NCBI GenBank assembly: GCA_905478845.1
Contig: CAJQKG010000155.1
Location: 1 to 52,187 of the forward strand
Source of the DNA: an uncultured Luminiphilus sp.
GTDB taxonomy: Bacteria > Pseudomonadota > Gammaproteobacteria > Pseudomonadales > Halieaceae
Length of the DNA: 52,187 nucleotides
Reading direction: 5' to 3'
Shown: positions 39,481 to 49,157 of the stretch, one piece after another
Numbering within the stretch: position 1 is the stretch's first letter
How the letters are laid out: each line of letters starts with the position of its first letter
Translations under genes and position numbers: made by a program
Notes under the pieces: model-generated
Seen by the model: the letters and a program-made list of their open reading frames with translations, nothing else
Database searches by the model: none
What the model was told of the DNA's origin: nothing

Positions 39481-40314
39481 ATGTTCGAGTTAGGTGGAGA
39501 TCACATTATGGAAACCTTGTCTTCGGGCATTCAGTATCGGCATTGGCCCGTACAAGAGGCAAAAGCCTGCATTTTGTTGATACATGGGCTGGCTGAGCAT
39601 ACGGGTCGGTACGAGCGTCTGGCGGCTTATTTTAATGCGAGAAGCATCGCCGTCGTGGGTCCTGATCATATCGGCCACGGAGCGTCGCCGGGGACTCGCG
39701 CTTATGTCGCTCAGTTCAGCGAGTATCTTGCGCCCCTCACCGAGCTGCGTGATGCGATCACGGGTTGGTATCCCGATACGCCCACTTTTATGCTGGGGCA
39801 CAGCATGGGCGGTTTAATTGCCGCGCACCTCCTGCTTCAGGACGCGCAGTCTTACCGAGGCGCTATGCTCTCTGGCCCGGCGTTTGCCGCAGACGAGGCC
39901 GTTTCGCCCGTCACGCTGTGGTTGGGCCGGCTATTTCGCGCCGTATTGCCCAAAATGGGCATGATGAGCTTAGAAGCGAATCAGGTCAGTCGTGATCCCG
40001 CGGTGGTGGCCGATTATATTGCCGACCCTTTGGTCTATAACGGCAAAATAACCGCCGCATTGGGGATGGAAATACTGAGCGCGATGGACGAAGCCATCGC
40101 GGGCGCGCAGCACATTACTTTGCCGGTTTACATTGCCCACGGGGAAGCAGATGTCATGGCGATGCCTGAGGGATCGCGCGCCTTTTTTCAGGCATTGGCC
40201 TCTGAAGATAAAACGCTGGATTGGTGGCCTGAGCTGTACCATGAGATTTTTCATGAACCCGAGTCCGAAGCAGTGATGGCCCGATTCGCAGAATGGTTGG
40301 AAGCGCATTTGTGA
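39481..40314 (+). CDS. Alpha/beta hydrolase, lysophospholipase/monoacylglycerol lipase family
   Basis: IHGLAEH, DHIGHG, GHSMGG nucleophile, HGEAD, LYHEIFHE. Confidence 0.9.
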   Translation: MFELGGDHIMETLSSGIQYRHWPVQEAKACILLIHGLAEHTGRYERLAAYFNARSIAVVGPDHIGHGASPGTRAYVAQFSEYLAPLTELRDAITGWYPDTPTFMLGHSMGGLIAAHLLLQDAQSYRGAMLSGPAFAADEAVSPVTLWLGRLFRAVLPKMGMMSLEANQVSRDPAVVADYIADPLVYNGKITAALGMEILSAMDEAIAGAQHITLPVYIAHGEADVMAMPEGSRAFFQALASEDKTLDWWPELYHEIFHEPESEAVMARFAEWLEAHL

Positions 40315-41192
40315 GTCATCCGCTGGCGCTGGTGCTCGGAGCAGGCGGGCAACTTGGGCAGGCCTGTCTCGCGGTGGTGCCACCACAACTGCGCGTGCAG
40401 GGGCTGACTCGAGCGCAATGTGATGTGACGGATCATGAAGCACTGCGTGATTGTTTACAGCGCCTGTCGCCGCAAATGGTCATTAACGCCGCTGCCTACA
40501 CGGCGGTGGATGCGGCAGAAGAGGATCGCCACCGTGCGCAGGTGCTCAACGCTGAAGCGCCGAAACACTTAGCCACGCTCTGCACCGAGCGGGGGATTCG
40601 TCTCGTGCATGTATCGACTGATTTTGTGTTTGATGGCGCCGCAACTACCCCTTACTTAACGACGGAGACGCCAGCGCCCATTGGGGTTTATGGCAAAACG
40701 AAGTTACAGGGAGAACAAGCAGTACTCGCCAGTGGGGCAGCTCATGCGGTGGTGCGCACAAGCTGGGTTTATGCCCCTCAAGGCAAGAACTTTATGCTCA
40801 CTATGCTGCGACTCATGGGAGAGCGCGGCGCGGTGAGCGTCGTCAGCGACCAAGTCGGTGCCCCGACGGCAGCATCCAGCTTAGCCCATATTTGTTGGCT
40901 ACTAGCTCAGAATGCTGAGGCGCAGGGTCTCTTCCATTGGAGCGACGAGGGGGAAATCAGTTGGTATGAATTTGCCTGTGCCATACGCGACGAGGCGACG
41001 GCGATTGGGTTGTTAACGACCCCGGTTACGGTAGAGCCGATTACTACCTCGGCCTTTCCGACTGCCGCCAAGCGGCCCGCTTATAGTGTGCTGAATGCAA
41101 AACAAACGTGCAACAGACTAGGGGTGGCGCAGCGCCCTTGGCGTGATGCGCTGCGTGACACTTTACAGGCAGTCGAGGCAAGGGAGTCTTAA
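40311..41192 (+). CDS. rmlD: dTDP-4-dehydrorhamnose reductase
   Basis: GAGGQLG, NAAAYTAVD.AE, STDFVFDG, YGKTK, RTSWVY, RPAYSVL. GTGA overlap with the upstream gene. Confidence 0.96.
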   Translation: MSHPLALVLGAGGQLGQACLAVVPPQLRVQGLTRAQCDVTDHEALRDCLQRLSPQMVINAAAYTAVDAAEEDRHRAQVLNAEAPKHLATLCTERGIRLVHVSTDFVFDGAATTPYLTTETPAPIGVYGKTKLQGEQAVLASGAAHAVVRTSWVYAPQGKNFMLTMLRLMGERGAVSVVSDQVGAPTAASSLAHICWLLAQNAEAQGLFHWSDEGEISWYEFACAIRDEATAIGLLTTPVTVEPITTSAFPTAAKRPAYSVLNAKQTCNRLGVAQRPWRDALRDTLQAVEARES

Positions 41193-41196
41193 TATC

Positions 41197-42261
41197 GTGA
41201 CAGAGTCTTTAATGGTGACAGGTGGCGCAGGATTCATTGGTGTGAACTTTGTGAATCATTGGACGCAAGCGCATCCAGAACACGCTTTAGTGGTATTTGA
41301 TGCCCTCACCTATGCGGGAAATCGCGCCAGCTTGGCGCCCCTGGAGGACAGTGGCCGCATTCAATTTGTGGAAGGGGATATTTGTGACGCGGCCCTCGTG
41401 GCCCGTGTTATGGCCGATTATCGTGTCGATACCATCGTGCATTTTGCCGCAGAGAGTCATGTAGACCGATCGATTACGGGCCCCGATGAATTTATCCGCA
41501 CGAATCTTCAGGGCACCCATGTTTTGCTTGCCGCTGCCCGGAACGCCTGGTTGTCGGGCTCGGGTTGCGAGCATCGTTTCCATCATGTTTCCACTGACGA
41601 GGTATACGGATCACTCAATGCCAGTGATCCCGCTTTTACCGAGACCACGCGCTATGAGCCCAATTCCCCTTATTCCGCGAGTAAGGCGGGCAGTGATCAT
41701 ATGGTGCGGGCTTATCACCATACTTATGGACTGCAGGTCACCACGAGCAACTGTTCGAACAATTACGGGCCCTACCACTTTCCTGAAAAATTAATCCCGT
41801 TGTGCCTGACGCGTATTTTAGATGGTGGCGCGCTGCCCATTTATGGCGATGGCACTAATATTCGCGATTGGCTTTATGTGGGTGATCATGCCCGGGGCAT
41901 TGCAGCCGTGCTTCAGGGGGGCATTCCCGGGGAAGTCTATAACATTGGTGGTCAGAACGAATGGGCTAACCTCGATATCGTGAAATTGTTGTGCCGAGTA
42001 TTGGATGAGCGCTTTGCGGCGGACGAGTCCTTAACAGGACGATTTCCCAACGCACCTCAGGCAAGAGGTTTGCCCAGCGAGAGCCTGATTGAATTTGTGA
42101 CGGATCGCGCCGGCCACGATTGGCGGTATGCGATTGATGCATCAAAAATTGAAGCTGAGCTGGGCTTTGTCCCAGAAGAAACTTTTGAAACTGGACTCAG
42201 CAAAACCGTCGATTGGTATCTGGATAATGAACACTGGTGGCGACCGCTGCTGTCACGCTGA
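41197..42261 (+). CDS. rmlB: dTDP-glucose 4,6-dehydratase
   Basis: TGGAGFIG, LTYAGN, HFAAESHVDRSI, HVSTDEVYG, YSASKA, DRAGHDWRYAID. Confidence 0.97.
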   Translation: MTESLMVTGGAGFIGVNFVNHWTQAHPEHALVVFDALTYAGNRASLAPLEDSGRIQFVEGDICDAALVARVMADYRVDTIVHFAAESHVDRSITGPDEFIRTNLQGTHVLLAAARNAWLSGSGCEHRFHHVSTDEVYGSLNASDPAFTETTRYEPNSPYSASKAGSDHMVRAYHHTYGLQVTTSNCSNNYGPYHFPEKLIPLCLTRILDGGALPIYGDGTNIRDWLYVGDHARGIAAVLQGGIPGEVYNIGGQNEWANLDIVKLLCRVLDERFAADESLTGRFPNAPQARGLPSESLIEFVTDRAGHDWRYAIDASKIEAELGFVPEETFETGLSKTVDWYLDNEHWWRPLLSR

Positions 42262-42292
42262 CGGATCAGTCGGCGACCGTGTTAGCCGCTTG

Positions 42293-42331
42293 GGTCAGTT
42301 GCTGAGGTCAGTCGCTGAGGTCGCTCGCTGA
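42293..42331 (+). repeat. Degenerate 13-bp tandem repeat x3
   Basis: ggtcagttgctga / ggtcagtcgctga / ggtcgctcgctga. Confidence 0.75.
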
Positions 42332-42442
42332 AAGCGTGCCGCGGTCAGGGTGCGTCGGCCGATGGTCTGACTGCCGCTCAAGAAACAGCGATAAATGCCT
42401 TAGTGAGCGCATCAGAGAATACTGCCACTGCGGGGGTTTGGC

Positions 42443-42472
42443 GTGCTCAGACACTGTGCTCAGACACTGTGC
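42443..42472 (+). repeat. Perfect 13-bp tandem repeat x2.3
   Basis: gtgctcagacact gtgctcagacact gtgc. Confidence 0.8.
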
Positions 42473-42485
42473 CTGGAATAGGTGG

Positions 42486-43055
42486 TTATGGCTGACTGAG
42501 CGCGGCAGTGCTGAACAAGGGCAGGGCATCCCAGTGAAGACCGCGGCAGTCCTTGTCCGATACTTGCGGTGGGGTCCCGCTGGAAATAGGCCAATCGATA
42601 CCCACGGTCGGGTCATCCCAGGCAAGCGTGATTTCACTGCTGGGATGGTAGTAGTCAGTGCACTTGTACAAAAAGTCGGCGCTGTCGCTTAAAACATAAA
42701 AACCATGAGCGCAGCCCGGTGGCACCCAGAGCTGTTCATGGTTTTCCGCTGTCAGGGTCACGCCATACCACTGTCCGCAACTGGGAGAGTCGGCGCGGCA
42801 ATCGACGATCACATCAAAGACTTCACCTGAGGTCACCCTGACGAGCTTTCCCTGAGGCTGCGTTGTCTGGAAATGCAGTCCGCGCAGAATGCCGCGTGAA
42901 GACCGGCTGTGATTATCTTGAACAAACGGCCGTTCAATGCCCGCTTCGGCATAACGATCGGCGCGCCACGTCTCAAGAAAAAATCCACGGGCATCCCCAT
43001 GGACGGTAGGGCGCAGCAGGGTCGCGCCCGTTATCGGTGTGGGCTCAATCTCCAT
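42486..43055 (-). CDS. rmlC: dTDP-4-dehydrorhamnose 3,5-epimerase
   Basis: DARGFF, VQDNHS, LRGLHFQ, QGKLV, HGFYVLS, YKCTDYY. Confidence 0.97.
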
Positions 43056-43953
43056 CGAAGATCAATTCGCCTTCATTCACGAGCCTTTCTAAATAGACGC
43101 CGTAACCGCTTTTGGTTAGCGGTGCAGCTAATGCCAACACCTGTTCGGCATCAATGTAGCCAAGCCGAAAAGCAATTTCCTCTAAGCAAGCCACCTTGAG
43201 GCCTTGCCGTTCTTCTATCACGCGGATGAAGTTGCCTGCATCGAGTAATGATTGATGCGTGCCGGTATCGAGCCACGCGGTGCCTTGCCCCATGACTTCG
43301 ACTTGTAATGTACCCTGCGCAAGATAGTGGCGATTAATATCGGTAATCTCGAGCTCTCCCCGCTCAGAAGGGCGGATACCTTTGGCGACCGAGACGACGT
43401 CGTTATTATAAAAATACAAACCGGTGACGGCATAGTGTGAACGAGGCTGGTCCGGCTTTTCTTCAATTCCAACGGCACACCCTTCAGTATCAAATTCAAC
43501 AACACCGTACCGCTCTGGGTCGTTGACGTAGTAAGCAAACACAGAAGCCGCATCACTGCGTTGTGCCGCGCGCCTCAGTTTAGTCGTGAGACCAGCGCCA
43601 TAAAAAATGTTATCGCCCAGAATCAAACAAACCGGAGCATCGCCAATAAAGTCCTCTCCCAGTAAAAAGGCTTGTGCTAAGCCGTCTGGGCTGGGTTGGA
43701 CCGTGTACTGAATACTGATGCCCCACTGGCGGCCATCTCCCAAGAGATCGGCATAGGCCAATTGATCTTGTGGTGTGGTGATGATCAGCACATCGCGGAT
43801 GCCCGCTTGCATCAGGGTGGCAAGCGGGTAGTAGATCATGGGCTTGTCATAGACGGGCATCAGCTGTTTGCTGACGGTCGTGGTCAGTGGATGCAGCCGA
43901 GTGCCGGATCCACCGGCGAGGATGATGCCTTTATACTGAGTAGATATCGACAT
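43045..43953 (-). CDS. rmlA: Glucose-1-phosphate thymidylyltransferase
   Basis: [49 protein letters not shown]. Start ATG 43953. Confidence 0.98.
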
Positions 43954-44105
43954 GTTTGAGTGGTTTGGATTAGGGTCACGCAGTTTACAGTTCGCTGGCA
44001 GGCTTGGCGAGTGGGCGATACACTCAGCGCCGCTGTACTTTGACGTTGGCAGTCGATATTGTGGCAGAGAAACTGCCATTAGTTTTCGCGACCCTGGAGT
44101 AACCC

Positions 44106-45392
44106 ATTAACGCGCCGATTTATTCGCCCGATCCTGCGCCCACTGCCCTGGATCAGCGCCCTGAGGGGGGTCTCCGCATTGCGCTGTTAGGTTATCGGTC
44201 TGCGCCCTTTTCGGGCGGGCAGGGCGTTTATCTGCGCTACCTCAGTCAATCGCTAACGGCACTCGGTCATGAGGTGACGGTGATTTCGGGGCCGCCATAC
44301 CCTAACCTCGTCGAGCCTGTCAGGCTGGTTAAGTTACCAAGCCTTGATCTCTACGCCCGAGATGTAGGGAGCGTGACACGACGTGAATTGCGCGACCCTT
44401 TGAATCGACGAGAGTGGGTGAGCAAGTTGAGCGGTGGTTTTGCAGAGCCTTGGACTTTTGGCGAGCGTGTTCGCGATTGGTTACTGGCTCATGCCCAGCA
44501 GTTCGATGTCATACACGATAATCAGACGCTGGCAGATGGCATTCTTGACCTGCAGCAGGCGGGCCTCCCCGTAGTGACCACGATTCATCATCCTATTAGC
44601 CGCGATTTGAACGTGGCTTTGGTCGGTGCGTCTGGCTGGCGCACGCGATTATTGGTTCGCCGCTGGCACTCTTTTTTAACGATGCAGGCACGAGTGGCTG
44701 CGCAACTGAATCACATTGTGACCGTCTCGAGTGCGTCGGCCGCTGATATTGCCACCGACTTTGGTGTGCTGCCGAGTGCGATAAAGGTCATACCGAATGG
44801 GGTCGATACTGAGCTCTTTCGAGCGTTACCGGATGTCATTCGAAAACCCGCGCAGTTGATCGCGACGGCGTCCGCTGATGCGCCCTTAAAGGGCTTGGCT
44901 GTCCTGTTACAGGCTTTCAAAATACTCAGCACCGATCGTCCCACGCTGCAGTTGATATTAATTGCCTCACCGAAGCCCGGCGGTGACACCGAGGCGCTCA
45001 TCCGTCAGCTAGCGCTCGGTGACCGCATTCAGTTTGTGGGGGGAGCGTCCCATGCTGACATCGTTCGTCTTTACGCAGAGAGCACCGTGGCAGTGGTGCC
45101 TTCGCTTTACGAGGGATTTGGCTTGCCGGCTGTCGAAGCGATGGCGTCGGGTATTCCACTGGTATCGAGTGACGGTGGTGCCTTAGCAGAAGTGGTGGGA
45201 GAGGGGGGGTTATTAGTCCCTGCCGGCGATACCAAAGCGCTTGCTGGGGCTATCGACGCGGTGTTATCCGATGCTGATTTAGCCGCGGAGCTGGTAAAGC
45301 GCGGGCAACAACGCGCGCACCGCACTTTCTCCTGGTCGGTCTGCGCACAACAGATGGTCGAGCAGTATCAGCAGTGCATTGATTTATGCTGA
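44106..45392 (+). CDS. GT4-family glycosyltransferase, similar to mycobacterial MMP mannosyltransferase ManT
   Basis: The reading frame extends upstream of the track start (44274) through [20 protein letters not shown]. Also contains [31 protein letters not shown] and [16 protein letters not shown]. No ATG/GTG/TTG in frame before the conserved N-terminus; ATT 44106 follows GGAG. Confidence 0.85.
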
Positions 45393-46093
45393 CGCTGGAC
45401 CTAGACACTCTAGCGCTGGGGCCAGGTGATCTGTGCTTGGATATCGGTTGTGGCGAGGGTCGGCATTCGTTAGCCGCGTATTGTTTGCCCGGTGTTTATG
45501 CGCTCGGTATCGACCTCTCTGAAAAGGATCTCGCGACTGCTAATGAGCGAACGAGCGACATGCTTTGCCATGCCCCTCAGGGTGAGATTGGATTTGGTGT
45601 GGGTGATGCGACGGCGTTACCCCTCGCCGATAATACCGTCGATGTCGTGATTGCCAGTGAGATTTTAGAGCATGTTCCGAACTACTTGCGGGTGCTGGAA
45701 GAGGCCATGCGGGTCTTAAAACCGGGAGGAAAAATGGGGATTAGCGTGCCTCGCCAATGGCCAGAGTGGGTTTGCTGGCAACTGAGTGAGGGCTATCGCA
45801 CGACCCCCGGTGGGCATATTCGGATTTTTGACGCGACGCATCTCCGTCGCGAAGTCGAGCGTCTTGGCATGGTGTGCGAGGGTCGCGGCAGCGCCCACGC
45901 CTTACACGTGCCGTACTGGTGGCTAAAGTGCCTCTTTTGGCGCCACGAGCGAGCGCCTTGGTTGGTCAGGGCCTATCACCGATTACTGGTGTGGGACTTG
46001 ATGAAAAGGCCATGGCTGACCCGAGCGATAGACGGGTTACTCAATCCGTTTATGGGTAAAAGCATCATCTTGTATTTTACCAAGCCCGCATGA
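45386..46093 (+). CDS. Class I SAM-dependent methyltransferase, similar to the putative MMP 3-O-methyltransferase MeT3
   Basis: [65 protein letters not shown]. Overlaps the glycosyltransferase stop. Confidence 0.8.
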   Translation: MLTLDLDTLALGPGDLCLDIGCGEGRHSLAAYCLPGVYALGIDLSEKDLATANERTSDMLCHAPQGEIGFGVGDATALPLADNTVDVVIASEILEHVPNYLRVLEEAMRVLKPGGKMGISVPRQWPEWVCWQLSEGYRTTPGGHIRIFDATHLRREVERLGMVCEGRGSAHALHVPYWWLKCLFWRHERAPWLVRAYHRLLVWDLMKRPWLTRAIDGLLNPFMGKSIILYFTKPA

Positions 46094-47184
46094 TGACCGA
46101 GCGACCCGTGCAGACCACGCGATTGGGCCCCGGCGCGTATCCCGAAGCGTGGTTGCGGCCAACGGTCGACTTCATCCTCAATACCCAAAGGCCATCGGGG
46201 GAAATACCCTGGTTCGAGGGGGGCCATACTGACCCCTGGGACCATACCGAGGCAGCTATGGCGCTGAGTATTGCCGGAGAAATCAGTGCGGCCGAGCGCG
46301 CGTATCAGTGGTTATCAGAGGCACAGCTTGGCGATGGTAGCTGGTGGGCCTGTTATCGCGCGGGGCAACCCGATCGGACAGTGGAGCGACGAGAGACCAA
46401 CTACGTGGCCTATATTGCGACGGGTATTTGGCATCACTTTCTGATTGCGCAAGATCCCCTATTCCTCGAGCGGATGTTCCCCGTCGTCGTTCGCGCATTA
46501 GACTTTGTGTTGCGCTATCAGGGTCCAGAGGGCGAGATTGATTGGGCAGTTGACGGTGCGGGTGCCCCATTGGGCGACGCGTTAGTCACCGGTTGCAGTT
46601 CCATCTACAAATCGCTGGAGTGCGGCATAGTGATCGCGGATCAGCTGGGTCAAAAAAAGGATCATTGGGAGCGCGCGAGATCCCAACTGGGCGACGCATT
46701 ACGACATAAGCCGGCACGCTTCGATCGCACTTGGGAGAGTAAGTCCCGCTATGCCATGGACTGGTTTTATCCCATTTTAACCGGAGTGGTGGACGGGGCA
46801 GCGGCGCGACAGCGGCTGAGTAGTCGTTGGTCAGAATTTGTTGAGCCCGGGATCGGCTGTCGCTGTGAAAATCATCAGCCTTGGGCCACCGTCGCAGAAT
46901 CTTGTGAGTTGACCTTGGCATTATTGGCCGCGGGGCAGCGAGATCAGGCAGCTGAACTATTCAGCTGGTTGGCGCAGTGGCGAGACGATGATGGCGCATG
47001 GTGGACTGGATATCAGTTTGCTGAGCGGACGCTCTGGCCATTAGAAAAGCCCACTTGGACCGCGGGTGCTGTGTTGCTGGCAGCAGATGCATTGACCGAG
47101 CACACTGGAGCCTGTCGCTTATTTACGAGCTCAGCCCTGCCTGTTCCGCTCGATACGCCTGCGTTGGAAGTGGGTTCTAGTTAG
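46090..47184 (+). CDS. 'Prenyltransferase'-annotated alpha-barrel protein, similar to MMP hydrolase MmpH
   Basis: GEIPWFEGGHTDPWDHTEAAMAL, QLGDGSW, ETNYVAYIATG.WHH, MDWFYP, TVAESCEL, WPLEKPTWT. ATGA coupling to the methyltransferase. Confidence 0.72.
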   Translation: MMTERPVQTTRLGPGAYPEAWLRPTVDFILNTQRPSGEIPWFEGGHTDPWDHTEAAMALSIAGEISAAERAYQWLSEAQLGDGSWWACYRAGQPDRTVERRETNYVAYIATGIWHHFLIAQDPLFLERMFPVVVRALDFVLRYQGPEGEIDWAVDGAGAPLGDALVTGCSSIYKSLECGIVIADQLGQKKDHWERARSQLGDALRHKPARFDRTWESKSRYAMDWFYPILTGVVDGAAARQRLSSRWSEFVEPGIGCRCENHQPWATVAESCELTLALLAAGQRDQAAELFSWLAQWRDDDGAWWTGYQFAERTLWPLEKPTWTAGAVLLAADALTEHTGACRLFTSSALPVPLDTPALEVGSS

Positions 47185-47188
47185 CGCG

Positions 47189-47800
47189 TTAGTCAGCCAG
47201 CCGCCGCAGCGCACGTAGGCTTCCCTGAGTTCCCTCAGGGGCAAAGAGTCCTGATTGTTGTGCTAATCGCCAAATCGTAAATGGCGCTTGACCGCCGTCA
47301 GCGGGGTCTGGAAAAACGTCGTGAATGGCGAGGATGCCGCCCGGTCCGATGCGCGGTGCCCAGTGGCGATAATCGGCGAGTGCTGCCTCGAGGCTGTGAC
47401 CACCATCAATAAAAACGACACTCAATGGGCCCGCCCAATGAGTGGCGAAGTGTTGACTGCTCGCTACGATGGGGATGACAACGTGCTCGAGATCAGCCTC
47501 GGCAATATTGCGTCGAAAAGCGGCAAAGGTATCGAACAAGCCTTCGGCGTTCACCAACGTCGCATCATGATGGCTCTCGCCTATTTGATGTTCCTCGGAG
47601 CCGCGATGATGGTCTATTGCGAAGACAGCGGTTTGCCGCGCTTGTGCGGCTTGGCCTAACCAGATTGTTGAGCGACCACAGTAGCTGCCAATTTCCAGAA
47701 GGGGACCCGAAGCGGTCGAGGCCAGCGCCCATTGGTAAAGTTGCAGGCCTTCGTCGTCTGGCAAAAATCCACGGACAGCGGCGTCGGGTGGTTGTGGCAT
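47189..47800 (-). CDS. Class I SAM methyltransferase (Methyltransf_24), similar to MMP 1-O-methyltransferase MeT1
   Basis: GFLPDDEG, EIGSYCGRST, DHHRGSEEHQ, FDT, FIDGGH, HDVFPDPADGGQAP, GSLR. Confidence 0.82.
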   Translation of the reverse strand: MPQPPDAAVRGFLPDDEGLQLYQWALASTASGPLLEIGSYCGRSTIWLGQAAQARQTAVFAIDHHRGSEEHQIGESHHDATLVNAEGLFDTFAAFRRNIAEADLEHVVIPIVASSQHFATHWAGPLSVVFIDGGHSLEAALADYRHWAPRIGPGGILAIHDVFPDPADGGQAPFTIWRLAQQSGLFAPEGTQGSLRALRRLAD

Positions 47801-47840: not shown

Positions 47841-49157
47841 TTGAGCGTTCGAAACCGGTGGTCTCTTCCTATTAATCGCCCTGTTTATTCGTGGGTGATG
47901 CGGCTGTTAGTGCCCTTATTGTTGGCTCGTCTATGGTGGCGTGGGCGCGATCAACCGGGTTATCGAGCGCATTTAGGGCATCGCTTAGGTTGTTATGGCA
48001 CAGCGGTTGCGTCTCGGCCGCACAATTTGATCTGGATTCATGCCGTCTCTGTCGGTGAGACGTTGGCAATCGCACCCCTCATTGAACGGTTGCTGAGCGA
48101 TCGAGAAGATCTCCCGCTGCTCATTACATCGACGACGCCAACCGGCGCCGCTCAGGTTCAACAGCGTTTTGGTGAGCGGGTTTTCAGCGACTGGGCTCCC
48201 TTTGATACGCCGGGGGCTGTGCGTCGTTTTCTCGATCATTGGAGGCCCACTGTCGGTGTATTCGTTGAGACTGAGATTTGGCCGAACATGGTGACGCAGG
48301 CGAACGCCAAGGCCATCCCGATGGTGTTGCTGAATGCACGGCTGTCTCGGCGGTCTGCCAGAGGCTATGCGCGGGTACCGAGATTGACCCGTGAAACAGT
48401 GGCTCATTTTTCGGTGATTGCCGCGCAGCAACGCGCTGATGCAAAACGTTTAGTGACGTTAGGTGCGCCTCCTGACAAGGTCGTCGTGACGGGGAATTTA
48501 AAATTTGCCCTGGATACGGTTGCGCTGCATACGGCCTGGCAGGCAGAGCGTCAGCGAGTAGGCGACGGACTGCAAGACCGACCGGTTTTCCTCGCTGCCA
48601 GCACGCACCCCGGTGAGGAAGCGGTCGTGCTATCCGCATTTTTGGCTCTGAGGGGCGAGCGCCCGAATGCGTTATTGATGCTGGCGCCTCGTCACCCAGA
48701 CCGAGCCGTCTCGATCCTTGCAATGACCCCCATGCAGGCTTTGCAGGTGGTGCGCCACAGTGAGCAGCGTGCTATTCAACGATCAGATGACGTGATGCTG
48801 ATTGATACTTTGGGGTCTTTGGGCGCCTTAACAGGTTTCGCTGATCTGGTATTCGTTGGCGGGAGTCTAGTCCAGCACGGCGGCCACAATCCGCTAGAAG
48901 CGGCGGCGTGGCAGTTGCCTATTCTGACCGGCCCTCACACAGTTAACTTTGCAACCATTTACCGTGAGTTAGTGCGGTGTGGCGGCGCGCAACAAATCGA
49001 GATCAAGACGCTAACCGATGCCGTTGTGTCATTGATTGGAGCTGACTCAGACCAGTCCCACGCTACAGCAATGGGCGCTCGCGCTGGGGCGTTCCAGTCA
49101 GCGCAAAGCGGTGTGATAGAGGCGCAATGGGCGGTGTTGAAAGCCCACTTACCCTGA
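47841..49157 (+). CDS. waaA: Kdo transferase
   Basis: IWIHAVSVGE, TTPTG, ETEIWPN, NARLS, ASTHPGEE, PRHP, GGHNPLE. Confidence 0.97.
   Translation: MSVRNRWSLPINRPVYSWVMRLLVPLLLARLWWRGRDQPGYRAHLGHRLGCYGTAVASRPHNLIWIHAVSVGETLAIAPLIERLLSDREDLPLLITSTTPTGAAQVQQRFGERVFSDWAPFDTPGAVRRFLDHWRPTVGVFVETEIWPNMVTQANAKAIPMVLLNARLSRRSARGYARVPRLTRETVAHFSVIAAQQRADAKRLVTLGAPPDKVVVTGNLKFALDTVALHTAWQAERQRVGDGLQDRPVFLAASTHPGEEAVVLSAFLALRGERPNALLMLAPRHPDRAVSILAMTPMQALQVVRHSEQRAIQRSDDVMLIDTLGSLGALTGFADLVFVGGSLVQHGGHNPLEAAAWQLPILTGPHTVNFATIYRELVRCGGAQQIEIKTLTDAVVSLIGADSDQSHATAMGARAGAFQSAQSGVIEAQWAVLKAHLP

What the first reader, a model, noticed from the sequence alone, without database searches (positions are those of the whole stretch)
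44106..47800. Complete mycobacterial-type methylmannose polysaccharide (MMP)-like cluster in a gammaproteobacterium
Seen: a coupled GT4 -> methyltransferase -> alpha-barrel 'prenyltransferase' operon, plus a convergent second methyltransferase ending 4 nt away. Knowledge (recalled): non-tuberculous mycobacteria make cytoplasmic 3-O-methylmannose polysaccharides with four clustered enzymes. These are ManT (GT4 alpha-1,4-mannosyltransferase), MeT3 (3-O-methyltransferase), MmpH (MMP hydrolase) and MeT1 (1-O-methyltransferase). All four proteins here carry motifs I associate with those families. Inference: this organism may make an intracellular methylated alpha-glycan that binds long-chain acyl-CoA or fatty acids, which I know of as chemically characterised only in Actinobacteria. 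Alternatively the module may have been redeployed for envelope glycan methylation, given the neighbouring rml and waaA genes.
Basis: partly seen in the sequence, partly recalled or inferred. Interest (0 to 1): 0.92.

Follow-up and report, generated by a model that had tools for sequence, protein, structure and literature searches.

The report
Methylmannose polymer genes plus hidden acetyltransferase
This marine bacterium and most of its relatives carry the four genes that mycobacteria use to build and recycle a small methylated mannose chain inside the cell, together with a fifth, usually distant acetyltransferase gene that is almost always present with them, so they likely make an acetylated form of a polymer so far isolated only from actinobacteria.

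Summary
Observation confirmed. The four intact genes (44106-47800) are counterparts of mycobacterial manT, pmeT3, mmpH and meT1, in the same order and orientation. Best solved-structure hits are 7QSG (E 1.6e-100), 7QSJ (2.8e-94, sole hit) and 6G7D (7.6e-54, sole hit), and the mutation-tested MmpH and ManT residues are kept. The host is a Luminiphilus-like Halieaceae. MmpH is in 24 of 24 genus-mates and 74 of 201 genomes of the order, and in the tree it lies outside the actinomycete group.

New here: an unlinked hexapeptide sugar O-acetyltransferase (G000:C55) is in all 74 MmpH-positive genomes and in 1 of 127 negatives (probably an assembly gap). It sits beside the cluster in several families, which points to an acetylated polymer. 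manT starts at a conserved ATT/ATC codon.

Against: no polymer or activity is shown; ManT Asp293 (guanine contact) is His or Thr; the cluster often lies among LPS-core genes. Acyl-CoA binding is inferred only.

The MmpH authors noted proteobacterial homologues in their peer-review file without following up. This scan found the cluster before on other DNA (55 notes).

The parts
44096..44108 (+). Shine-Dalgarno GGAG (44096-44099) and non-canonical ATT start codon (44106-44108) of manT; likely lowers or regulates ManT translation (inferred)
   Evidence: GGAG 6-8 nt before ATT/ATC-AAC-GC in the window and 16 of 16 readable relatives; ATG never at that place; no canonical start before the conserved N-terminal motif in the window, L027 or L031
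44106..45392 (+). manT counterpart: GT4 retaining glycosyltransferase, predicted alpha-(1->4)-mannosyltransferase (428 aa)
   Evidence: 7QSG (M. hassiacum ManT) E 1.6e-100, next hit 3e-28; G15, H142, K240, E313, G314, F315, L317, E321 kept; L291->A and D293->H
45386..46093 (+). pmeT3 counterpart: class I SAM methyltransferase, predicted 3-O-methyltransferase (235 aa)
   Evidence: 47-50% to the gene in the same position in five mycobacterium-like genomes, E 1e-57 to 1e-68; model pLDDT 94, nearest fold RebM (TM 0.68-0.70), with AtmM among the top hits; no biochemically proven MeT3 exists to compare with
46090..47184 (+). mmpH counterpart: (alpha/alpha)6-barrel endo-alpha-(1->4)-mannosidase that recycles the polymer (364 aa)
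   Evidence: sole PDB hit 7QSJ E 2.8e-94; 10 of 11 published active-site residues identical, F102->Y
47189..47800 (-). meT1 counterpart: 1-O-methyltransferase that caps the free reducing end (203 aa)
   Evidence: sole PDB hit 6G7D E 7.6e-54; E78, H79 and H144 of that chain are matched by E70, H71 and H135 (their catalytic role is recalled, not read)
40293..43953 (.). context, not part of the pathway: rmlD-rmlB (+) and rmlC-rmlA (-); rmlA is head-to-head with manT
   Evidence: rmlA over the TIGR01207 cut-off; rmlB/C/D named by my reading of the sequences; rmlA next to manT in only 11 of 71 genomes, families f1, f25 and f33
47841..49157 (+). context: waaA-like Kdo transferase, divergent from meT1; marks the LPS-core slot of the chromosome
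   Evidence: PF04413 E 1.9e-66; synteny

Best explanation
The four genes are the counterparts of the mycobacterial MMP cluster and likely build and recycle a soluble, cytoplasmic alpha-(1->4) chain of 3-O-methylmannose that is probably also O-acetylated by a fifth enzyme encoded elsewhere in the genome (G000:C55:6476-7195). Inferred steps: ManT adds mannose from GDP-mannose to a pre-existing oligomannoside; pMeT3 methylates O-3 of each new unit; MmpH cuts mature chains into primers; MeT1 caps new reducing ends with a methyl group; the hexapeptide enzyme transfers acetyl from acetyl-CoA to the chain. The most likely job, less certain than the chemistry (about even odds), is to hold long-chain acyl-CoA or fatty acids in cells that live on lipids. 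Shown here: genes, orthology, residues, order, distribution and co-occurrence. Not shown: product, donor, acetylation site, function, expression.
For: PDB hits to ManT, MmpH and MeT1. The residues whose mutation kills or cripples the M. hassiacum enzymes (MmpH D47, D50, E262; ManT K240, E313, E321; PMC9883506 sections 11 and 14) are kept in the window and in every gammaproteobacterial sequence covering them. Same order and convergent meT1 as in mycobacterium-like genomes. Three-gene operon in 70 of 71 and all four adjacent in 55 of 71 order genomes; meT1 present elsewhere in 5 of 5 tested genomes where it is not adjacent. No hydrophobic N-terminus or membrane-like stretch in any of the five proteins. 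The genome holds ManC/PMI over cut-off and a phosphomutase. One metagenome locus reads manT-pmeT3-mmpH-acetyltransferase-manC, and its ManT has Thr at position 293. Acetyltransferase: 75 of 201 genomes against MmpH 74 of 201, all 74 shared. It agrees with MmpH in four mixed families completely and in the fifth but for G147, which also lacks manT and the neighbouring hldE, so probably an assembly gap. Its own neighbour gene does not follow the pattern (42 of 201, 23 shared). It is adjacent to the cluster in 10 of 71 genomes. Searched on its own, it sits right after mmpH in 4 of 13 metagenome loci at 40-48% identity, against 0 of 65 generic hexapeptide loci. Nearest folds are maltose and polysialic-acid O-acetyltransferases, with His127 and Trp149 invariant in 25 sequences. 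Streptomyces griseus is reported to make an acetylated MMP (passages of PMC9883506 and PMC4555173). MmpH-positive genomes are richer in acyl-CoA dehydrogenases (median 21, the count cap, against 9).
Against: No chemistry or enzyme assay. ManT Asp293, proposed to read the guanine of GDP-Man, is His in the window and in 17 of 19 Halieaceae-level loci, and Thr in 59 of 71 order genomes. It is Asp in 43 of 43 Streptomyces and 4 of 4 mycobacterium-like sequences, so the donor could differ. pMeT3 is itself only putative in mycobacteria. LPS genes are neighbours in 30 of 71 fetched stretches. manC was adjacent in only 1 of 164 loci. 40 of 46 MmpH-positive actinomycete genomes, including the one Streptomyces tested, have no match to this acetyltransferase at E 1e-22, so it is probably not the S. 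griseus enzyme; 1 of 3 other proteobacteria also lacks it. The acyl-CoA role is doubted in vivo even in mycobacteria (PMC2674218 passages). The dehydrogenase excess is inconsistent inside the five mixed families, and 20 of 127 negatives are just as rich; kin are not independent. Transcription was not shown.
Confidence: 0.66

Rival explanations
1. Same pathway logic and location, but a different sugar or donor: the enzymes would make a soluble methylated alpha-glycan from another nucleotide sugar (for example ADP- or UDP-glucose), or only short oligomers.
For: The guanine-contact Asp293 is His, Thr, Asn or Glu in nearly all Pseudomonadales ManT, and MmpH F102 is Tyr in this genus; identity to the proven enzymes is only 44-50%.
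Against: All residues proposed to hold the mannosyl ring (E313, G314, F315, L317) are kept. The contact was inferred from PimA, not tested by mutation. A Thr-type ManT shares a gene run with manC in L256. GDP-mannose genes are in the genome.
Confidence: 0.15
2. The module has been redeployed to make or decorate an envelope glycan (LPS outer core or O-chain of methylated, acetylated sugars), with rml and waa genes as partners.
For: The cluster lies in the glnE-ilvE...waaF-waaC...hldE...waaA-tolC slot in several families (L148/L149, L162, L167, L195); LPS genes within the fetched stretch in 30 of 71; rmlA head-to-head with manT here. An O-chain of 3-O-methylmannose is known from Oligotropha (PMC9883506 introduction). 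Hexapeptide acetyltransferases also act on surface glycans.
Against: MeT1 needs a free anomeric OH, which a lipid-linked chain lacks, yet it is kept in 55 of 71 loci and elsewhere in 5 of 5 others. No transporter, polymerase or ligase lies between or beside the four genes in the window. The same cluster works without LPS in actinomycetes (46 of 151). rml adjacency is limited to three families, and Cellvibrionaceae and Endozoicomonas loci have none of the probed LPS genes nearby. G183 keeps hldE without the cluster.
Confidence: 0.12
3. The four genes make plain MMP, and the acetyltransferase is only a fellow traveller of the same lineages or acts on something else.
For: The gene is unlinked in this genome, between a TrmB-like gene and a kinase, and was not seen beside the cluster in 61 of 71 fetched stretches. 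Mycobacteria make MMP without a close relative of it. Kin share genes.
Against: Presence and absence agree inside five mixed families, the neighbour control does not, and it is physically joined to the cluster in separate lineages in three different arrangements.
Confidence: 0.07

Closest known systems
Mycobacterial MMP cluster manT-pmeT3-mmpH / meT1 (M. hassiacum MHAS_04402-04405; M. smegmatis MSMEG_6484-6481; PDB 7QSG, 7QSJ, 6G7D; PMC9883506)
   Same: Four genes, same order and convergent meT1; 44-50% identity to mycobacterium-like genomes; mutation-tested residues of MmpH and ManT kept; no export signals.
   Different: Gram-negative marine host; ManT D293->H (T in most of the order); MmpH F102->Y; ATT/ATC start of manT; placed in the LPS-core slot; accompanied by a hexapeptide acetyltransferase not found in the mycobacterium-like genomes sampled; product unverified.
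Acetylated methylmannose polysaccharide (AMMP) of Streptomyces griseus (Harris and Gray 1977; seen only as cited in PMC9883506, PMC4555173 and PMC9890503)
   Same: Predicted product type: an alpha-(1->4) 3-O-methylmannose chain bearing acetyl groups. Streptomyces loci carry the same three-gene operon at 42-53% identity.
   Different: No close relative of this acetyltransferase was found in the one Streptomyces genome tested (best E 1e-14, partial); S. griseus itself was not examined; meT1 lies several kb away or out of view in Streptomyces loci.
Maltose / galactoside O-acetyltransferase family (left-handed beta-helix; PDB 1OCX, 2IC7) and polysialic-acid O-acetyltransferases NeuO / OatWY
   Same: Hexapeptide fold; the His and Trp aligned are invariant in the new family.
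   Different: Only 21-40% identity over part of the chain; extra N- and C-terminal helices; below every NCBIfam cut-off shown; a distinct family that follows mmpH.

Membership tests
MMP biosynthesis and recycling cluster | Four genes manT, pmeT3, mmpH, meT1 in the conserved arrangement | tested here: met
   same order and orientation as four mycobacterium-like genomes (L241-L244).
MmpH alpha-endomannosidase | Catalytic D47/D50/E262 and site residues W49, N101, F102, T163, M215, Y219, E265, W315 | tested here: met
   10 of 11 identical, F102->Y; numbering mapped by eye from the 7QSJ alignment, offset +1.
ManT alpha-(1->4)-mannosyltransferase | Catalytic and mannosyl-binding G15, H142, K240, E313, G314, F315, L317, E321 | tested here: met
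   All identical; offset +26 in 7QSG.
ManT alpha-(1->4)-mannosyltransferase | Asp293 proposed to contact the guanine of GDP-mannose | tested here: not met
   His316 in the window; Thr in 59 of 71 order genomes; Asp in 43 of 43 Streptomyces and 4 of 4 mycobacterium-like sequences. The contact was inferred by the authors from PimA, not tested by mutation.
MeT1 1-O-methyltransferase | Sequence family of 6G7D with E78, H79, H144 | tested here: met
   Sole hit E 7.6e-54; residues matched and invariant in 28 of 28 gammaproteobacterial sequences. Their catalytic role is recalled; the paper was not held.
pMeT3 3-O-methyltransferase | Orthology to the gene between manT and mmpH; 3-O-methylating activity | tested here: inconclusive
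   Positional orthology met at 47-50%; activity is unproven even in mycobacteria; fold nearest RebM.
MMP biosynthesis and recycling cluster | Cell contains an 11-14-mer of alpha-(1->4) 3-O-methylmannose with methyl aglycon | not testable with these tools
   Needs extraction and mass spectrometry.
MMP biosynthesis and recycling cluster | GDP-mannose supply in the genome | tested here: met
   TIGR01479 over cut-off (618 bits; gene split over the ends of contigs C195 and C290) and a PGM/PMM next to it.
AMMP (acetylated MMP) | Acetyl esters on the polymer, put on by a dedicated transferase | tested here: inconclusive
   Candidate gene co-occurs in 74 of 74 and is sometimes linked; activity and site untested; no close relative in the Streptomyces genome tested.
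LPS core / O-antigen module | Flippase or ABC exporter, polymerase, ligase or membrane anchor in the module | tested here: not met
   None among the four genes or their direct neighbours in the window; the rest of the genome was not searched for such genes.

The most novel reading that the evidence does not exclude
Abundant marine Pseudomonadales (Halieaceae/OM60 and some twenty other families) make an acetylated methylmannose polysaccharide by a five-gene pathway that is old in Gram-negative bacteria rather than borrowed from actinomycetes. Its O-acetyltransferase is the hexapeptide family identified here, ManT output is throttled by a conserved AUU/AUC start in Luminiphilus, and the polymer serves as a cytoplasmic carrier for acyl chains in lipid-feeding ocean bacteria.
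Probability: 0.35. Interest if true: 0.82.

Novelty: new variant of a known kind. Interest (0 to 1): 0.62.

Why it matters
MMP has been isolated only from actinobacteria, and its job in the cell is unsettled. If marine gammaproteobacteria with 2-3 Mb genomes keep the whole pathway, the polymer matters to cells that have no mycolic acids, and it may be a common unrecognised glycan in ocean biomass. Named marine strains that carry the cluster (HTCC2080, Simiduia aestuariiviva, Pseudomaricurvus hydrocarbonicus) offer a system in which to test function. The co-occurring hexapeptide gene is a concrete candidate for an MMP O-acetyltransferase, an activity for which I found no assigned gene in the passages read.

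Tried and rejected
Prenyltransferase or cyclase reading of the barrel: rejected. It has only a weak squalene-cyclase score (E 0.004) against MmpH E 2.8e-94.

Recent transfer from mycobacteria: rejected. GC3 is like the neighbours, 24 of 24 genus-mates carry MmpH, most families form their own groups in the three-protein tree, and the 18 actinomycete MmpH lie on one side of a branch (SH-aLRT 97) with no gammaproteobacterium inside. The trees are unrooted, no clade test was run, and families f1, f18, f21 and f51 are split, so the direction of any old transfer is open.

Viral carriage: no match to the six peptide patterns in viral contigs (finds close relatives only).

Expression: inconclusive. 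Two RNA-labelled runs cover all 30 bins evenly, like DNA. A third small cDNA run has contigs on 45202-45762 and 46337-46632 but also on many other genes (16 of 30 bins). Contigs cannot show strand or level.

Promoter and terminator scans were near chance (2 vs 2.1; 9 vs 4.6 +/- 2.2).

manC linkage as a general rule: only 1 of 164 loci.

The first residue count for position 293 read the wrong column and was redone.

Not held: the 2019 PNAS MeT1 paper and the 2009 JBC review. The main supplement of PMC9883506, with the homologue alignments, was too large to read. Either could already list proteobacterial clusters.
Full report
1. Observation. The window holds four intact ORFs as described: GT4 44106-45392(+), methyltransferase 45386-46093(+), barrel 46090-47184(+) and a convergent methyltransferase 47189-47800(-), 4 nt from the barrel's stop. 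The first three overlap at their stop and start codons, which suggests one translationally coupled operon (inference). The ORF finder starts the GT at a GTG at 44274, inside the conserved N-terminal motif. The real start is most likely the ATT at 44106: a stop lies two codons upstream, GGAG lies 6 nt before it, and the same ATT/ATC-AAC-GC start with GGAG at 6-8 nt is found in 16 of 16 readable relatives (of 18 loci), although its distance to the conserved core varies from 22 to 44 codons. Each gene is single-copy and has the base composition of its neighbours. The nearest named loci are Halieaceae/Luminiphilus (88% and 75-78% for the barrel).

2. Identity. Against solved structures, the GT's best hit is 7QSG (E 1.6e-100; next 3e-28). 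The entry is named only as a glycosyltransferase, but its sequence carries every ManT residue given in PMC9883506 at offset +26. The barrel's only hit is MmpH 7QSJ (2.8e-94). The last gene's only hit is 6G7D (7.6e-54), which I take from memory to be MeT1. From PMC9883506 I read the abstract, sections 4, 11, 14 and 16, search passages and part 4 of the peer-review file. Of its 11 MmpH site residues, 10 are identical and F102 is Tyr. All eight catalytic and mannosyl-binding ManT residues are identical. L291 (main-chain contact) is Ala and D293 (proposed guanine contact) is His. The second gene has only generic hits. It is 47-50% identical to the gene in the same position in five genomes whose ManT motif matches 7QSG and which show meT1 convergent after mmpH. 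Its model (pLDDT 94) is nearest to RebM, with AtmM among the top hits; both are sugar O-methyltransferases by my knowledge. Two cluster representatives are methyltransferase-MmpH fusions (P0170, P0176).

3. Distribution. MmpH is in 24 of 24 genus-mates, 74 of 201 genomes of the order (17 families wholly positive, 31 wholly negative, 5 mixed), 5 of 301 in a phylum-wide draw (two of them this genus) and 46 of 151 actinomycete genomes. I fetched stretches of 4-20 kb from 71 of the 73 other positive genomes of the order, leaving out two fragmented ones. Of these, 70 show manT-pmeT3-mmpH (the miss is a contig end) and 55 show meT1 next. In 5 of 5 tested genomes without adjacent meT1 it lies elsewhere. 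In a three-protein FastTree most families group together, while f1, f18, f21 and f51 are split. In a 52-row MmpH tree the 18 actinomycete rows form one side of a branch (SH-aLRT 97), with two deltaproteobacterium-like metagenome rows beside them and no Pseudomonadales inside. This argues for long residence with losses and some transfers; without a root it gives no donor.

4. A fifth gene. In Pseudomaricurvus, Simiduia, Pseudoteredinibacter and Endozoicomonas loci a hexapeptide-repeat gene lies beside or near meT1. The window's genome has its orthologue on another contig (G000:C55:6476-7195, 42%, E 6e-60). Searched over the same 201 genomes at E 1e-25, it is in 75: all 74 MmpH-positive genomes plus G147; the weakest best hit is 1e-50. 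G147 also lacks manT and hldE, which its three genus-mates keep beside the cluster, so an assembly gap is likely. G183, of the same family, has hldE and lacks both genes. As a control, the TrmB-like gene next to it in this genome is in 42 of 201, only 23 of them MmpH-positive. It is adjacent to the cluster in 10 of 71 stretches. In a metagenome scan made with it alone, 4 of 13 loci at 40-48% identity have mmpH directly upstream, against 0 of 65 generic hexapeptide loci. Two of the four continue into a B12 radical SAM gene and meT1, and one continues into manC. Outside the order it is in 2 of 3 MmpH-positive proteobacteria. Among actinomycetes only weak matches exist (7 of 151 at 1e-22, six of them MmpH-positive), so 40 of 46 positives lack it. 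Its nearest sequences and folds are maltose, galactoside and polysialic-acid O-acetyltransferases, with His127 and Trp149 invariant in 25 sequences. Kin are not independent, but agreement inside mixed families and repeated physical linkage make membership in the pathway likely.

5. Mechanism. By transfer from the proven mycobacterial enzymes, MmpH would cut mature chains, MeT1 would cap new reducing ends, ManT would extend from GDP-mannose and pMeT3 would methylate O-3; the hexapeptide enzyme would add acetyl esters. The five proteins show no hydrophobic leader or membrane-like stretch. The genome encodes ManC/PMI and a phosphomutase. The open point is the donor: position 293 is Thr in 59 of 71 order genomes, His in this genus and Asp in all actinomycete rows read. 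A Thr-type enzyme shares a gene run with manC in one locus, which fits GDP-mannose but is a single case of 164. This is suggestive only.

6. Envelope rival. The cluster often sits between ilvE and waaA among waaF, waaC and hldE (30 of 71, a lower bound given short flanks), and this genome has heptosyltransferase-family matches on other contigs. However, rml adjacency is limited to three families (11 of 71), several lineages have no probed LPS gene nearby, MeT1 needs a free reducing end, and the same cluster works in actinomycetes without LPS. I give this 0.12.

7. What is known. Searches of the held library found one paper on MmpH, none holding both Halieaceae and methylmannose, and no occurrence of 'proteobacteria' in the main text of PMC9883506. 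Its peer-review file states that MmpH has 40-51% identical homologues in some Proteobacteria with conserved site residues, and that this was outside the study's aims. The 2019 PNAS paper and the main supplement could not be read, so prior mention of whole clusters cannot be excluded. This scan's own notes hold 55 findings of the cluster in at least 54 genomes. One of them describes an acyltransferase beside it in a Syntrophales-type genome and shares words with the acetyltransferase. A word search for hexapeptide co-occurrence in Halieaceae returned none.

8. Verdict. A real, orthologous MMP-type cluster in a Gram-negative marine lineage, with a probable fifth acetylating enzyme and a conserved non-AUG start: a new variant of a known kind. 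The chemistry is likely (0.66), the function is open, and it is directly testable in cultured strains. Interest 0.62.

Noticed in passing
G000:C55:6476-7195 (L112:1483-2223, P0122), outside the window: Hexapeptide O-acetyltransferase that follows mmpH in 74 of 74 genomes; likely fifth pathway gene.
   Followed up: yes
window 44096-44108: Conserved ATT/ATC start with GGAG in the window and 16 relatives; annotation pipelines will truncate manT here.
   Followed up: yes
L247:5729-7318 and L251:6738-8306: Metagenome contigs read manT-pmeT3-mmpH-acetyltransferase-B12 radical SAM, with meT1 convergent, suggesting further methyl tailoring in probable anaerobes.
   Followed up: partly
L256:2881-8201: manT-pmeT3-mmpH-acetyltransferase-manC in one orientation, next to his genes; meT1 not in view.
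   Followed up: partly
L036:1918-2892, L042:1853-2812, L044, L045:1979-2857: An MmyB-like HTH regulator lies head-to-head with manT in several Cellvibrionaceae-type loci; an ArsR-methyltransferase fusion is inserted between mmpH and meT1 in L042.
   Followed up: no
P0170, P0176 (cluster representatives): Natural fusions of the pMeT3-type methyltransferase with MmpH, about 600 aa.
   Followed up: partly
P0123-P0272: In 48 of 74 full-length MmpH representatives Asp50 is Asn while Asp47 stays (65 of 74), which favours Asp47 as the catalytic acid left undecided in PMC9883506.
   Followed up: partly
window 39481-40314: Hydrolase_4 (monoacylglycerol-lipase-like) gene between ilvE and rmlD, seen in the same slot in two other Halieaceae (L150, L152).
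   Followed up: no
G000:C195:3963-4175 and C290:1-1296: manC/PMI is split across two contig ends that overlap in model positions 35-71, so the contigs are probably adjacent.
   Followed up: no
L150, L152, L025-L030: waaA is missing from its usual place between meT1 and tolC in several Halieaceae; its presence elsewhere in those genomes was not checked.
   Followed up: no
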